A stretch of 64,000 nt of DNA from assembly GCA_051362555.1 (NCBI GenBank), contig CM120644.1, positions 5,340,954 through 5,404,953 of the forward strand. The letters are read 5' to 3'. Shown here in pieces: positions 24,965 through 36,346 of this stretch (its first letter is position 1; each line of letters starts with the position of its first letter). This stretch comes from Lingula anatina. Taxonomy: Eukaryota; Animalia; Brachiopoda. The notes below the pieces were generated by a model. The model did not search any database. It had not been told where the DNA came from and was given only the letters and a program-made list of their open reading frames with translations. Made by a program: the position numbers and the translations under genes.

Positions 24965-25105
24965 ATGTCCATGAAGCTGATCCGCGCAAGCAGCGGCACG
25001 TACAATGTGCGTGCGGAGGAGATGGCTCGGGATCGTCCCCAGATGAAGACTGTGAAGTGCATTGTGCACTTCTTGGATGAGACCAAAGAGTCATTTGAGG
25101 TGGAT
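24965..25105 (+). CDS. PTPN4: PTPN3/PTPN4 (Ptpmeg)-like tyrosine phosphatase, coding exon 1
   Basis: Acceptor at 24954, in-frame TGA upstream, CACCATG start. MSMKLIRASSGTYNVRAEEMARDRPQMKTVKCIVHFLDETKESFEVD matches the PTPN4 N-terminal TYNVRAxExARDR motif. Donor GTAAGT. Confidence 0.93.
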
Positions 25106-25614
25106 GTAAGTATGGGACTGGACTGTAGGTGGCTCTGTTGGTGAGGTCCCCCAACTGTAGGTGGTGCTGCTGCTAATGTATGCAAGACAAAATTGTCTTA
25201 ATTCTCTTAACATTTATCTGACTTTTGGTGAAAAGATATTTAATTTAAATGTTTTTTGCTTCAAACAAATTAATTTAAGATAAATGCCCTCTAAAATAAG
25301 TTGCTTAGGTACCATTTTAGCAGCTATGCAGCAATGCTATGCATTTTTCATGTTGATCAAACTTAATTTGTGTGTAGATATGTCTATGTCTGATAATGAC
25401 CATTATGGCATGGCAGCGAATGCTTGTCATTAAATTTTGAAATGAAATTCCTTAAATATATAGATATGCAGAATTCTAACCAATAGTCCTTTTTCAAACA
25501 GAGTTTAGAGAACATCATGTTTGTCATGCTCAAGTTCCAGTCAGAATGATCACTTCTGAAGGAATCTTTCGTTATCATCCCACTTTATAATTTAAGATTG
25601 CAATCCTGTTCCAG

Positions 25615-25728
25615 AAACGTGCGAAGGCCGGAGCATTACTGGACATAGTGTACGATCACCTTGAGTTAATAGAGAAGGATTACTTCGGCCTTCAGTTTGC
25701 CGATGTGGCGCCTGCACCAGACGCTATG
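25615..25728 (+). CDS. PTPN4: PTPN3/4-like coding exon 2 (FERM F1)
   Basis: ccag|KRAKAGALLDIVYDHLELIEKDYFGLQFADVAPAPDAM|GTACGT, phase 0-0, with the FERM LxEKDYFGL motif. Confidence 0.95.
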
Positions 25729-25889
25729 GTACGTGCTGGGGGCAAGCAAGGACCAACAAGGGTAGATATTGATGTGATACACATAATCACAGGGTGTTGA
25801 GTTCTTGCATGGGTTTTTTTTAGTATTGTTTTTTTTTCTGTGTTTCAGTCCTTGAAATACTAGAAACTGTAGTTAGAGACTGTGTACAG

Positions 25890-27047: not shown

Positions 27048-27300
27048 GGGCTATTCAGATTGAGTTAGGTAGACCTAGCTAGTGTGATTTTACTAAATTG
27101 GGACTCTCGCTGAAAGAAATCAGATAAAGAAATGAACATGCCTCCTTGCATTGAGTAGAATACAGAAAAGCTGGTGTTTATACAAGAACATTAAAAACAA
27201 GAGGAGGGGTGTTTATATGTCAATCTGACTGCACTCAGCGAGAGCTCCCTCAGAGCTGGAATGCTCTAGGCAGACCTAAAGTTCCACTGGGAATGAACCC
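27048..27300. mobile_element. Degenerate MITE related to family A
   Basis: Ends GGGGCTATTC...TAGGTAGACCTAG and CTAGGCAGACCTA...GGGAATGAACCC, with internal inverted CTCTCGCTGA / TCAGCGAGAG. Confidence 0.5.
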
Positions 27301-27749: not shown

Positions 27750-27792
27750 AGATGGCTGGATCCTCTGAAGAACCTTAAGAAACAGATACGAC
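27750..27792 (+). CDS. PTPN4: PTPN3/4-like coding exon 3 (FERM F1)
   Basis: atag|RWLDPLKNLKKQIR+C|GTAAGT, 43 nt, phase 0-1, with the FERM WLDPxKxxxKQ motif. Confidence 0.95.
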
Positions 27793-29416
27793 GTAAGTTC
27801 CTTCATTTCTGGTCTTAGTCACTTCAGATAGGTCAAGTAACCCATCAAAGACAGCTTTTAATACAGTCAACTTTAGGAACTTGAGCTAATTGTAGTATTG
27901 ATGAAGTTAATTGTGTATTTGATTATATCTATATATGTACAGCACTGTGGCATAGCTACTTCCAGTCAAGTTTCATTTTTGAGAAATTGGAGGAAATTAA
28001 TTTGGTTTTCTTACTGGTATCTCACAGGACTTGATGCCTAGTGAGCACCTTGGGTTCTGAGGTGATTTTCTATATATACAGTGTTATACAAAAATGACTA
28101 AACTGGTTTATTGTCTATGAAATGAACTGCTTCTTTATAGTATGTCAGTATATGAAATCTGTTTTTAAATTAGATAAATTAGCAAAAATTATAAAGTTTT
28201 TCAAGCATGGCTGCTGTTGCATCTGGCTCAAAAATAAAGCAACCCCACTTGAACAAAAGCCATGATAAGGCTTATGTGATCAAAATAAACCAAACACATA
28301 CAACCTGGTTTGAAATACATTGAAATTTCAGGTATGAAAATTAACTTTTTCGACTTGAAATTCTTTCTGAACCTGGGCCCTGTGTGGAGAAAACAATAGT
28401 CTTGGACCTTAACTGATCTCTGTGACTCGGGGTGGAACCCTGGTGTCTTCAACTAATTACCAGATTATTACTGCCTCCAGATCAATACCTAATATCTCAT
28501 ATATCTGTCATGGGGTATTAAGATGGACTCCAATATCTTGGACATCGGGGTCAGTCGGACCGTAAATTCTCTCTGAATTCGAACGAAATGTTTTTTCTTA
28601 ATAACACATTTATCAATGCAGTTGATTTGTTAGTGGTTCCTGAAATTGACGATTTTTAAGTTTTGAAAAAATTATATGTTATTAAATACTTATGTGGGAT
28701 GAATATTGAAAATGAAAGAAGGTTTGAAAAAGAATTGTTCGAAATTTGTTTATTATCACAATTTTTTCTAATCTGTTTACTTCCTAGGGTCCAGCACTAC
28801 GAGCCTATCAGCCTGATATTTAATAAGATAAATGGTATTTTGTGATGTAAATCAATAATGCACTTTACGTATTGAAGGTCATTTTATACTCCTTGGAATT
28901 TGCTGGAAGTTGTGTCCCTGTATTATTTGGGTACTTACGGAAGGTGTGAGTTTCCTGATTGGATAACTACAGTAAGCAAAATAATTATAAATAAATGAAG
29001 TGTCTGTTTTATTAGGTTTCCAGTCAACATACACTTCTAATATACTGATGAAACTACAAATTACCTGGAGAACAAACACAGAATATGCGATGCCAGCTTT
29101 GGTATACAATTAGAAACAAGAAAAGAACCATAATAGAATTTTTTTTTTCAGTTTTCAGTTAGACTTCTTTACACACTACTGTGCCAAGCAGTTCGACCAA
29201 GATTAATGAATTTATTTCAAAGAAATGTCATTTTGGTCTTTATTTTTATCAGCTTGCTGTTATATGTTTTCCAGCTTTCCTGGGTTACTGTGAACCAATC
29301 AGATGTCCAGGCCAATTATGAAATATCACGAAGGAATTATCAAAGTGAAAATGATTTACCATAAATGTTTATATTTCTTTCTTTTTTTTTTTTTTTTCTC
29401 GTTGGTCAAATTGCAG

Positions 29417-29495
29417 TAGGTCCACCGTACACACTAGAATTTGCAGTCAAGTTTTACGTCTGTGATCCATGCAAGTTGACAGACGAGTACACCAG
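29417..29495 (+). CDS. PTPN4: PTPN3/4-like coding exon 4a (mutually exclusive with 4b)
   Basis: Long T tract, gcag|(L)GPPYTLEFAVKFYVCDPCKLTDEYT(R)|GTAGAG, 79 nt, phase 1-2. Confidence 0.9.
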
Positions 29496-31574
29496 GTAGA
29501 GCCACTGTGTATACAGGGTCATATGTACACACATATATTGGCGATTTCTTTTATTATACTCACTGGGCTCACTCTGGGCAAATGCTCCTTTATATAAGCA
29601 AAATCGATGGTTGAATCAGGCCAAAAAAAAAAAAAAAAAATCCCAATGAGAAATTTGGCTAAATATCCATTTATAGTTGAAATGTGCTGAGCCAGACTGG
29701 GTCCAGATTTGATGCTTGCCAGAATACGCACATGGAATAGTCTGAGGCTGATAAGGTGTCAGGAGACGTTTTGAATGTTTACGGGATGGTCTACCTAATA
29801 TGCTTACAAAACAATCTATTGCTTTTAGAGGTTCTTTCAACCTTGGCAAATCATTGGAAGTGGTCTGTTAGGAATGTGTAAAATTGTATAGGTTTGTATT
29901 TCATTTTCATCCTGATACTGTTCTTCAGCATAGATACAAGCCCTTCATAGATAAATCCTCAGAAAAAAGTGTATGAGACAGTGAATCATAGCAGATGGAA
30001 TTATTTCTATAATACCACCTCAAACTCCCCTTGTTAAGAATACTACCAAGAACTTGGTTATAATATGCAACAAATCGTACAGTTTGTAGGATTTCCCTCT
30101 GTTCACCATTCTAAGAGTTCTCAGTGCTACATGTGGGCAGACATTTGTCACCTGTGCATAACTGCATCGTTGATAACCTTCAGCATAAATACGAACAAAA
30201 ACGTGCCACTCGAACAGTTGAAACTGGCATGAAATGGCCATATTACTTTTATTACTTGGAATAATTTGACAGATGCCTAGACTGAATGTGACACTTAGAT
30301 TCACAGAAATCTGAATTCATAGATAACCCTTGCCACAGTCTGGCTATTACCTACACTGTAGATATGAATTTTGTATTTTATTTCTCATGGGATTAAAGGA
30401 ATATTAATGTTTGAACAGAAGATACAAAATGCAAAAGATACAGTAAAAAAATTATTTATCATCGCAAATGCAGTATGTAATTTTAGGTGTCATCATGACT
30501 AGGCAATAGAATTTTTCACCAGGCATCTAAAAAATAGATGAAGGTCATTCTTCCCAAGACTTTCAAGGCTCAGTTCATCATCCTTTTAATCAAATTGCCT
30601 GGATGTTTCTAAGTTTCCAGAGAAATTTGCTGCTCCATCAAGGGCTGGATTACTGGGATAGACACCCGTCTTTTATGCCCTTGTTTCAATTTTCTCATCC
30701 ATTAATAGAACAGCATGTGCTTCCTGGTAGGGCTGCAAAAAAGTCATTTAGAACTGCACGTAATTTCAAGATGTATAGCTGAACTCCTGGAAACCACTGG
30801 AATTGTTAATGCTGCAGTCTTCCTTGTTGAAGTAAATTATCTGTGGCCAACAGAATGAATAGCTAAATGCCTTGAAATTACAGGAGTTAGTGCACTCGTA
30901 CTTGCTGAAGTAATGAATCCGTGACTGAAAATCAGTCTTACTTTTTTTATTGAATTTGAACATGTGTAGAGATGTATCCTGAAACAATAGCCTGTAAGTA
31001 TTTAATATATTGAGGAATGAAGTCTGAAGTTTTAGTTTAAATCATTTTTTTTAATGAGATATTTTGAATTGTTTAAAAAAAGATGTTTGAAAAAGGGAAA
31101 GTGTTTGGCCCTTGGAAATTTTATCTGGTTTGGGTAGCTGTATTTTGCTGCCTGTTTTTGAAATGACTATATAATAAATAGCATAAGGGAATGATATGAC
31201 TTTGACCTCTTACTCAAAGAAATGAAAATAAAAAATAGGTTAACAAATACAACAGGAAAGAATAAAAATATTAATTATTAAGAAACAAAGATACTGAATG
31301 GATAAGGAAGAAATAAGTTCTTTATAAAAGGTCTTCTTGACATGTAGAAATTGCCTGTTGTAGACTTTTCTTTACGCAATTCAGATAAATTGGATTTAAT
31401 TTAGTGAAAAATTGAATTGTAAAAAAAAAAAAAAAAAAAAAATCACCAGAGACACCTTATATGGGACCAATTCCATGTGTGTATATATGTGTGTACATTA
31501 CTGTTTACATATACTATATTTACTTTTTCAGTTTTATTTCAACTTTCCTCTTTTTCTTTTCCCTCCTGTTTCAG

Positions 31575-31653
31575 TTGGTCCGCCCTATTATTTCCAGTTT
31601 GGGGTCAAGTTTTATGTGTCTGATCCCAGTAAACTGAGTGAGGAATACACAAG
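31575..31653 (+). CDS. PTPN4: PTPN3/4-like coding exon 4b (mutually exclusive with 4a)
   Basis: Pyrimidine tract, tcag|(L)GPPYYFQFGVKFYVSDPSKLSEEYT(R)|GTAAAG, 79 nt, phase 1-2. Closer than 4a to the PTPN4 VKFFVSDPxKLxEEYTR motif. Confidence 0.93.
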
Positions 31654-32920
31654 GTAAAGTGGGATAGTCCCGCACAGAATCACTTGTAGGCTTCTGATTG
31701 GATGGCTGTGTCACATGATTCTGCATGTGCTTGCTTACTGGCTTTGGTCACTCTTGCCACTATTTAAGAGATATCTCTCCCCCCCCCCCCCCCCCCCCAA
31801 CCCCCAAAAATGTGTTTGTGTATGCTGTTTCACAAGAAATCTTAAATTCTTGATGGCAAACTTGTTTCGACTTTTTTTAAAACTGCTTACAGTCTCAGTG
31901 TATGGCTTCTTCCAACCTTTCTCTGTGCTTTGCTCTTTTTACTTAACATCTAATCGGAACGGTTTCATGCGATGCTATGTCTGCCAGCTTTTATAGTTTT
32001 AAGCTTGTGCAGGAATGACTACATGGTCCTTCTGCTGTTCTCCAATACCTTGAGCTGAACATGTGGTTATAGCACTTGGTCACATGATCTGTTGCTTGCA
32101 AGCTTTTGATTGGCCAGTTCTAGCATTTGACAGTCCTGTTCAGAAGCTTAGTATAATATCATTTTGTCAGTATTCTGGTGATTTGTGTCTTTTTACTGGT
32201 AAGCAGGCTGAGTCTTGGAACTGGTTTTTTAAGCCACTCTGTATCATGTGTTAGAAGGTATCTTTGGTCAGTCATGGGATATAAACTTAATTTGAAGTTT
32301 TATGGGTGTGGCTCCCAATGCACAAGATGTTTGTATAATTTCATATTGTTCAGTTTTTCTCTGCATAAATGTTTTGTTGTGATTTCTTTAATATGTCTAT
32401 TCGTGTTACTCTGTGCAAGGCTTTGTTCTTCCACCTTACAGAATATGACAGGTTGCGCCCAAATGTCTAAATGTATGATTGTATTGCTATTATAAACAGA
32501 ACATGTCCATACCAGTTGATTTGGTTTCATGAATGATAGTTCACCCCATGCATCCACCCCACCCATGTGACCAGGAGACCGTTAACTCTGCCCCCCCCCC
32601 TCTATCCCCCCCTCCCCCCTCCCCTTCAACTCCCTTGACTTGCTCTTTTCTTTGCTGTGCTTTCATGCTCAACTTTGCTTTTACACGTTAATTATCAGTC
32701 TATCACTGTTGCTTGGTTTTCTTTTTTTTTTTCTTTTTTTTTTTGCTTTTTTTCTTGAAGACAAATGAGTATGAATCTAAGTCTACAAGTAAAGAAATTT
32801 AAGTCCATTTGTTTTGCCAAAGAAAATCGTTGCAGCTGTGTTTGATCAATTTAGTATTAAGTTTTTATCTTTTGATCATTTCCATTTCTCCAGCATGTCT
32901 GCCGTTTCCCTGTGTTTCAG

Positions 32921-33018
32921 ATACCATTTCTTCCTCCAGTTGAAAAAGGACATATTAGAGGGCAAGCTTGTATGTCCACCTACCACGGCAGCACTACTGG
33001 CCAGTTACGCTGTGCAGT
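32921..33018 (+). CDS. PTPN4: PTPN3/4-like coding exon 5 (FERM F2)
   Basis: tttcag|(R)[32 protein letters not shown]+T|GTAAGT, phase 2-1. Confidence 0.95.
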
Positions 33019-35239: not shown

Positions 35240-35327
35240 GGGTCAAATGCCTGCAGACGCTGAATATAACTACTTAGACGTTGTAAAGCGATTAGACATG
35301 TATGGTGTAGACGTCCACTTGGCGAGG
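35240..35327 (+). CDS. PTPN4: PTPN3/4-like coding exon 7 (FERM F2/F3)
   Basis: ctccag|(K)GQMPADAEYNYLDVVKRLDMYGVDVHLAR|GTAAGG, phase 2-0. Confidence 0.95.
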
Positions 35328-36346
35328 GTAAGGGTAAGCACCACTTTATTGCCTGTAGAAGTAGTAGCCGGTGTGTTTGGGGGTGGGGGGGGGGGGGGGA
35401 GGGGTGAATAATACAAATGTTTTAAAATTTTACTAAGACCATTCACGCATGACCTGGAGATTTCGAGTAGTTTAAGCTGTGGGAAATGTGCTACGGTGGC
35501 CCTTGTATAACATCGGGCTAAAGCTCTGCATGTGAGCCTTCATGTAACACTAACTAGGAACTAGGGTGTAAAGCTTATATCACGGGAGGGGGGGTGCTTG
35601 CTAAGAGTTCTTTACATCATGTATTAAGCCCTGAACCCTGGCCCCTTGTTATAGGGTACATACTATGACCCTTGTTTATCACCTGACTGGCCTGCACTGT
35701 ATTGTTATCAACTTACACAAGACACTATTTCAAGGCTTAGATCTCCTTAGCTCTTGGCACTAACAAATTATAAAGAGTATTAATTGAGAAAATAGTCATT
35801 CTACCTGCAAACTGCACAATATTAAAATGCTTGCACATTTTTGATTTTTGCTCTGCTGTGTTAAGACACGGGTTTTACAACTGTACACAGTGTTATAATA
35901 TAACCAAAGCTTTTTAATACCATGCACATGACTGTTGTTTGGTTTGGAATTGGTTTGCTGTTTCTTTTCTACTAAAAACAGAGCAAATTTATGTTGGTGA
36001 TCATTAAAATTTGTTTTTTTTTCATATCCTGAGTTAAGTTATTGCATTTAATATGAAACAAAATACTTAAAGTTAAACCTTCTAGTAAGTGATAGTTTTT
36101 TCTTTAAAAAATTGTGAAATTGAAAGTATTAGATATTAAGCTAAAATCATGAAGGCATTAACCCTTTCAAATGTTAAACATGGTGTAGACTGCACCCTAG
36201 TTGGTGCCAATAACTGTACGTTCTTATGAATTCTCTATTAGCATAATTTGTTCTTTCTTCAAGCATACATTTAGATCTAGCTGTCTTTGCTGAACTTCAC
36301 CAATGGCAAAATTGATTGAATATTGATTTTTTTTTTCATCTCTCAG

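What the first reader, a model, noticed from the sequence alone, without database searches (positions are those of the whole stretch)
29417..31653. Tandemly duplicated, mutually exclusive exon pair in the FERM domain of a PTPN3/4 (Ptpmeg) gene
Seen: two 79-nt exons with identical phases (1-2) and intact splice sites encode the same FERM F1/F2 junction, LGPPYTLEFAVKFYVCDPCKLTDEYTR and LGPPYYFQFGVKFYVSDPSKLSEEYTR (19/27 identical). Eleven of the 19 conserved codons differ silently and the flanking introns show no evident similarity. Including both exons gives a stop at 31621; skipping both gives a stop at 32941. Inference: an old duplication with both copies under purifying selection, producing two FERM variants with exclusivity backed by NMD. 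I do not recall this being described for PTPN3/4 but cannot check the literature.
Basis: partly seen in the sequence, partly recalled or inferred. Interest (0 to 1): 0.85.

Follow-up and report, generated by a model that had tools for sequence, protein, structure and literature searches.

The report
Switchable exon in brachiopod PTPN4 anchor
A lamp-shell (brachiopod) gene for the signalling phosphatase PTPN4 carries two intact, long-diverged copies of one small exon, and RNA reads show samples using one copy, the other, or a mix, so the gene likely makes two versions of its membrane-anchoring domain for different tissues or stages.

Summary
Confirmed and now supported by RNA. Exons 4a (29417-29495) and 4b (31575-31653) are 79-nt, phase 1-2 paralogous exons (19/27 aa identical, synonymous sites saturated, pN 0.17) in the PTPN3/4 (Ptpmeg) gene; the window matches Lingula anatina RefSeq proteins at 100%. 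In 7 of 9 listed RNA runs laid, 4a joins exon 5 while skipping 4b (5 runs), exon 3 joins 4b while skipping 4a (3 runs), and 4b joins exon 5 (3 runs). No 4a-4b or skip-both junction was listed in the four runs with a complete table. The exon 3-4a junction was never listed and is inferred. Use switches by sample: about 95% or more 4a in one study, only 4b in another, both in a third; tissues are unknown. 4b is the ancestral-like copy; 4a is derived. No second copy was seen in other animals' isoforms or genomic contigs; no other brachiopod was available. RefSeq models 4b only as a first exon, which these reads contradict. No docker/selector structure was found; NMD is untested. A new member of a well-known kind. 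The scan's earlier notes held nothing on this gene.

The parts
24965..25105 (+). First coding exon of PTPN4 (start of FERM F1)
   Evidence: 100% to RefSeq residues 1-47; junction 25105-25615 in 4 of 4 runs
25615..25761 (+). Coding exon 2 with two donors, 25728 (short) and 25761 (adds 11 aa to an F1 loop)
   Evidence: Both junctions to exon 3 seen; both keep the frame
27750..27792 (+). Coding exon 3 (43 nt), upstream constitutive exon
   Evidence: Reads; RefSeq residues 97-110 of P0001
29417..29495 (+). Exon 4a, derived copy; last F1 strand, F1-F2 linker with two cysteines, start of F2 helix 1
   Evidence: Junction to exon 5: X1 86, X2 105, X7 5 reads; X3 56, X8 6; model strand 104-110 and helix 123-138
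31575..31653 (+). Exon 4b, ancestral-like copy of the same segment
   Evidence: Exon 3 to 4b junction: X4 1, X5 1, X8 7 reads; 4b to exon 5: X4 6, X5 3, X8 3; closer than 4a to 38 of 45 orthologs
31621..31623 (+). Premature TGA if 4a and 4b are both included
   Evidence: Translation
32921..33018 (+). Coding exon 5, downstream constitutive exon (FERM F2); holds the premature TGA at 32941 if both copies are skipped
   Evidence: Pfam FERM_M; reads; translation

Best explanation
The PTPN4 gene holds two tandem copies of the 79-nt exon for the FERM F1-F2 junction and splices one or the other into its message in a sample-dependent way, so it likely makes two equal-length FERM domains in different cell types or stages. 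Shown: the two exons, their frames, junction reads for each, and the switch between samples. Inferred: the exon was duplicated in place within the brachiopod (or Lingula) lineage. 4b, which has the stronger pyrimidine tract and the ancestral-like sequence, is the low-level default. 4a is switched on by trans-acting splicing factors in samples that also express about ten times more of the gene. Messages with both or neither copy would be removed by NMD. The eight residue changes, four on the last F1 strand and four in the linker and F2 helix cap, are predicted to tune lobe packing or membrane and partner binding, and so where the phosphatase acts, not its catalysis.
For: Anatomy and stops. Junctions. 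Reads leaving 4a vs 4b for exon 5: X3 56 vs none listed (depth 1), X4 0 vs 6, X5 0 vs 3, X8 6 vs 3; X3 against X4+X5 p 3e-10 (reads are not fully independent). X1-X5 share the variant at 27779, so the P1/P2 switch is unlikely to be a lineage difference. Read variants inside the two exons are 4 silent and 1 Tyr-to-Phe. Both copies share odd states at residue 107 (E/Q, 0 of 45 orthologs each) and 109 (A/G, where 40 of 45 have R). Pyrimidine content before 4b 96%, before 4a 77%. Exon 3 depth 40-59 in X1-X3 vs 3-13 in X4, X5, X7, X8. The human PTPN4 FERM domain sets membrane and spine localisation (PMC8439436, passages).
Against: The exon 3 to 4a junction is listed in neither call; both calls say one joint was dropped at skipped repeats, and a T-run lies just before 4a, so this junction is inferred from depth and from RefSeq models. 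Rows need 3 reads, so up to 2 double-inclusion reads per run could be hidden (95% upper bound 5-10% in X3), and hid 84 joints. 4b counts are small (3-10 reads a run). Tissues are unknown. In a 26-column tree 4a and 4b do not group together; 4a falls beside band 4.1-like 4 (94/59, not starred), though their monophyly is not rejected (p-AU 0.37). No protein or functional data.
Confidence: 0.82

Rival explanations
1. The splicing switch is real but the two proteins are functionally equivalent; both copies persist because each is the only copy used in some cells (subfunctionalisation of splicing).
For: Most of the 8 changes are conservative (L/F, E/Q, A/G, T/S, D/E, two C/S). Cys at 115 occurs in 3 of 45 orthologs; Cys at 118 in 1 of 45 and in 7 of 7 band 4.1-like 4 peptides. 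Purifying selection fits this reading equally well.
Against: 4a has moved further from orthologs than 4b (mean 15.0 vs 17.9 of 23 columns), and no other fetched protein of 223 has both cysteines. This is not exclusive of the splicing model; it replaces only its last step.
Confidence: 0.35
2. Exon 4a was not copied from 4b in place but taken or converted from a paralogous FERM gene of the band 4.1-like 4 (EPB41L4A) type.
For: 4a matches 7 band 4.1-like 4 peptides at a mean 18.4 of 26, more than it matches PTPN4 orthologs (17.2), and groups with them in the best tree at 94/59.
Against: Its best single matches are PTPN4 orthologs (20 of 26). It keeps Tyr124, found in 43 of 45 PTPN4 orthologs and 0 of 7 band 4.1-like 4 peptides, and Val114. 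It shares the unusual acidic/amide residue 107 with 4b. The tree has 26 columns and does not reject a 4a+4b clade.
Confidence: 0.07
3. 4b is not an internal alternative exon but the first exon of a short isoform lacking F1, as RefSeq isoforms X8 and X9 model it.
For: 2 of 6 RefSeq sequences start at an ATG at 31487 in the intron and read into 4b; none of the 6 joins exon 3 to 4b.
Against: Exon 3 to 4b junction reads in 3 of 4 runs, and zero depth over 31327-31477 in 4 of 4 runs.
Confidence: 0.05
4. Assembly artefact, or one copy is a dead pseudo-exon.
For: Only one assembly window was seen; no whole genome is held.
Against: Copies are 67% identical with saturated silent sites, so not alleles; both are read in RNA from a reference-like and a diverged set of animals, with mostly silent variants.
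Confidence: 0.01

Closest known systems
Tandem exon duplication-derived substitutions / homologous mutually exclusive exons (PMC8373072, PMC9741552, PMC5740500; passages and supplement searches)
   Same: Two homologous internal exons of one length and frame, one used at a time, mostly conservative changes, sample-specific use; length not divisible by three, as in 377 (60%) of human MXE clusters (PMC5740500).
   Different: No PTPN, FERM, EPB41, FRMD, FARP or NF2 entry in the human table (controls PKM and FYN found) and no Ptpmeg, ptp-1 or cora entry in the fly/worm tables (control Mhc found). Most human cases are shared with fish; this one was seen only in Lingula.
PTPN3/PTPN4 (PTPH1/PTP-MEG1; fly Ptpmeg) FERM-PDZ-PTP phosphatases
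   Same: Same domain order; phosphatase domain scores 467 bits to PTPN4 and 400 to PTPN3.
   Different: Other animals' isoforms showed one version of this exon per species (193 of 218 listed isoform sequences carry it).
Docker/selector MXE clusters (Dscam, 14-3-3 zeta, Mhc, srp; PMC6071210, passages)
   Same: Tandem duplicated exons with long intervening introns.
   Different: No competing pairing above background here.
PTPN21 FERM-PTP autoinhibition (PMC10901363, passages)
   Same: A FERM-bearing phosphatase in which F1 governs activity and the F1/F3 groove binds lipids.
   Different: Its interface uses F1 alpha-1 and beta-2, not the last strand and linker that these exons encode, so it gives no direct mechanism.

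Membership tests
Homologous mutually exclusive exons (criteria of PMC5740500) | Neighbouring exons of similar length and sequence in the same frame | tested here: met
   79/79 nt, phase 1-2, 19/27 aa
Homologous mutually exclusive exons (criteria of PMC5740500) | Junction reads from each exon that bridge over the other | tested here: met
   4a to exon 5 in 5 of 7 runs; exon 3 to 4b in 3 of 4 runs
Homologous mutually exclusive exons (criteria of PMC5740500) | Junction reads tying each exon to its adjacent constitutive exon | tested here: inconclusive
   4b to exon 5 seen in 3 of 4 runs; exon 3 to 4a not listed, probably filtered beside a T-run; present in 4 of 6 RefSeq sequences
Homologous mutually exclusive exons (criteria of PMC5740500) | No reads joining the two exons, unless joining shifts the frame | tested here: met
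   None listed in 4 of 4 runs (threshold 3 reads); joining gives a stop at 31621; table was cut
PTPN3/PTPN4 (Ptpmeg) family | FERM, FA, PDZ and PTP domains in order | tested here: met
   Pfam on P0123; only residues 1-506 map to the window, PDZ and PTP exons were not found in it
Docker/selector RNA-structure MXE | One intronic site pairing with competing selector sites | tested here: not met
   Best duplex -31.5 kcal/mol was matched or beaten by 11 of 30 matched control pairs; no second partner stood out. No cross-species covariation test was possible.
Steric or U2/U12 exclusion | Branch point within about 50 nt of the upstream donor, or incompatible splice sites | tested here: not met
   Intron 2079 nt, AG-free zone before 4b only 41 nt, donors GTAAGT, GTAGAG and GTAAAG
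NMD-backed MXE | Double-inclusion and skip messages rise when NMD is blocked | not testable with these tools
   Only the stops at 31621 and 32941 are shown

The most novel reading that the evidence does not exclude
Exon 4a is a brachiopod invention that puts a Cys-Asp-Pro-Cys pair at the F1-F2 hinge of the FERM cloverleaf. One cell type would then make a thiol-switchable (redox, metal or lipidation) PTPN4 whose membrane targeting responds to conditions, while other cells make the inert Ser-Asp-Pro-Ser form, with the short exon 2 donor co-selected.
Probability: 0.1. Interest if true: 0.65.

Novelty: new member of a known kind. Interest (0 to 1): 0.4.

Why it matters
It is an RNA-supported case of a swappable structural exon inside a FERM domain, which I did not find in nine literature searches or in the human, fly and worm catalogues checked. 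It gives a natural pair of variants for asking what the F1-F2 junction does for PTPN4 targeting, a property tied to human neurodevelopmental variants (PMC8439436). It also corrects the RefSeq model of this gene. The mechanism class is familiar and the case looks lineage-restricted, which limits its reach.

Tried and rejected
No whole genome held. No RNA holder listed by the index; the nine runs came by species label, and 7 of 9 were laid (X6 and X9 not). One search's joint table was swamped by poly-C artefacts at 31779-31799. Docker/selector pairing: a 27943-27972 / 31688-31718 duplex looked strong against 4 shuffles but not against 30 real control pairs; inverted repeats were mostly A/T runs. 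Splicing-factor motifs: one TGCATG at 31722 and mild YGCY excess, not convincing (motif assignments recalled). A second copy in other animals: 0 of 26 metagenome loci, of which 2 hold exons 3, 4 and 5 with both introns (L003, L022), 8 lack one flanking intron, 8 are transcript-like and 8 are incomplete. No other brachiopod or phoronid among named hits of three protein searches or the representative search, whose 8 hits were band 4.1-like 4 or unnamed fragments. Single-sequence fold useless (pLDDT 29.6); the alignment-based model gave secondary structure only, no distances. The tree cannot settle origin. Ten other exon peptides showed no clear duplicate. PMC5740500 supplements gave 0 hits for PTPN3, PTPN4, FERM and EPB41, but without a positive control.

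Full report
Observation. The two exons are as described: 79 nt each, AG/GT ends, 53/79 nt and 19/27 residues identical, with 8 identical, 11 silent and 8 replacement codons. Either one alone keeps the frame from exon 3 to exon 5; both give a stop at 31621 and neither gives a stop at 32941. The match is far above chance (cross-score 99, next best 26) and the flanks share only homopolymer runs.

Gene and organism. A downstream exon matches a Lingula anatina RefSeq PTPN4 protein at 100%, and residues 1-506 of the RefSeq isoforms map exon by exon onto the window. The product has FERM, FA, PDZ and PTP domains, its best PDB matches are PTPN3 and PTPN4, and the model matches PTPN4 and FERM structures. 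In the model the exon covers residues 100-126: strand 104-110, the linker and the start of helix 123-138. Of the 6 RefSeq sequences seen, 4 use 4a and 2 use 4b only as a first exon read from an intronic ATG. Isoform names X2 and X3 were not seen.

RNA. Seven of nine listed runs were laid, X4 twice. In one search the 4a to exon 5 junction had 86 (X1), 105 (X2), 0 (X4) and 5 (X7) reads; depth in 4a vs 4b was 78 vs 5, 92 vs 0-4, 0 vs 6 and 6 vs 3-6. That table hid 84 joints. In one search, on a stretch without the poly-C run, exon 3 joined 4b in X4 (1), X5 (1) and X8 (7). Loose ends reading into exon 5 came from 4a in X3 (56) and X8 (6), and from 4b in X4 (6), X5 (3) and X8 (3). No 4a-4b joint and no exon 3 to exon 5 loose end was listed, at a threshold of 3 reads. 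The intron before 4b had zero depth over 31327-31477, against the first-exon model. The exon 3 to 4a junction was not listed in either call. Each call reports one joint dropped at skipped repeats, one of which lies just before 4a. X3 has depth 40 on exon 3, 52 ten bases into 4a and 0 in the intron before it, so I infer the junction.

Regulation. Study P1 uses almost only 4a, P2 only 4b and P3 both (X3 vs X4+X5 p 3e-10; X3 vs X8 p 0.007; reads are not fully independent). P1 and P2 share a variant at 27779 that P3 lacks, so the P1/P2 contrast is more likely tissue, stage or condition than lineage. 4b depth is low and similar in most runs, while 4a is high where the gene is about ten times more abundant. 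The short donor of exon 2 follows the same samples (35 short vs 32 long in X1+X2; 1 vs 8 in X4+X7; p 0.03). The samples are coded, so tissue is unknown. Human PTPN4 is highest in neurons (PMC8439436, passages), which makes a neural 4a a guess only.

Selection and age. Between the copies pS is 0.83 (saturated) and pN 0.17. Of 13 exonic read variants I tested, 12 are silent; inside 4a and 4b 4 of 5 are silent and one is Tyr to Phe (one search hid 57 further rows). 4b is closer than 4a to 38 of 45 orthologs, 4a closer to 1. Both copies carry states rare or absent elsewhere at residues 107 and 109, which suggests duplication after a lineage-specific change. Of 218 listed isoform sequences from 19 non-Lingula clusters (at most 15 listed a cluster), 193 carry the exon, and the small differences inside clusters followed species labels. 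None of 26 metagenome loci held a second copy, though only 2 have the same exon layout complete. The same 76-79 nt phase 1-2 exon appears in 8 of these loci, so the duplicated unit is the ancestral exon. No other brachiopod was available, so the age is bounded only loosely.

Against a simple origin: 4a resembles band 4.1-like 4 peptides (mean 18.4 of 26) slightly more than PTPN4 orthologs (17.2) and sits beside them in a 26-column tree at weak support, though a 4a+4b clade is not rejected. It keeps the PTPN4-type Tyr124 and Val114, so I read this as convergence and leave 7% for a paralog origin. The same result weakens the cysteine-switch idea, since Cys118 is normal in that paralog family.

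How exclusion works. Steric and U12 routes do not fit, and no docker/selector pairing beat controls (model from PMC6071210, passages). What remains is regulated choice by splicing factors with frame-shift and NMD as backstop, the commonest arrangement among human clusters (PMC5740500, passages). This step is inferred.

Function. Four changes lie on the last F1 strand and four in the linker and helix cap. F2 and F3 both pack on F1, and the F1/F3 groove binds lipids (PMC10901363, passages; PMC6515277, passages). FERM variants mislocalise human PTPN4 (PMC8439436). I therefore predict tuning of targeting or lobe packing, and give about one in three that the two forms are equivalent.

Literature. 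Nine searches listed no paper on this event, judged from listings and abstract starts. Supplement searches of PMC8373072, PMC9741552 (passages) and PMC5740500 (no control) found no PTPN3/4 entry. MetazExp (PMC8728262, listing only) mentions Lingula and may hold the event in its database, which I could not see. Subscription papers are not covered. The scan's notes had nothing near this place and nothing on this gene.

Verdict. A real, expressed, sample-switched pair of homologous mutually exclusive exons in a PTPN4 FERM domain; a new member of a known kind, seen only in Lingula so far; interest 0.4.

Noticed in passing
window 25728 / 25761: Alternative donors in coding exon 2 add or omit 11 residues in an F1 loop; the short form is common in the 4a-rich samples. 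Several bivalve and nemertean orthologs also carry insertions at this loop.
   Followed up: partly
window 31615 onward, run X3: Four reads carry about 25 letters not found in the window before lying on the second half of 4b: chimera, allele or insertion, unexplained.
   Followed up: partly
window 29605-29647: Weak likeness to the exon 3 peptide just after 4a (score 32, self 76, next 22), much of it from an A-run and with no splice sites; a decayed copy is possible, chance is more likely.
   Followed up: partly
window about 35324-35330: RefSeq isoforms differ by two residues at the end of this exon, consistent with two donors 6 nt apart.
   Followed up: no
window 27115-27190: Short intronic stretch heavily covered by reads with unrelated loose ends, probably a dispersed repeat.
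   Followed up: no
runs X7, X8: These animals differ from the reference at many fixed silent sites, suggesting a distinct Lingula lineage that also uses both exons.
   Followed up: partly
window 29417-29419: 4a begins with TAG, giving a tandem acceptor 3 nt downstream that would keep the frame; use could not be seen.
   Followed up: no
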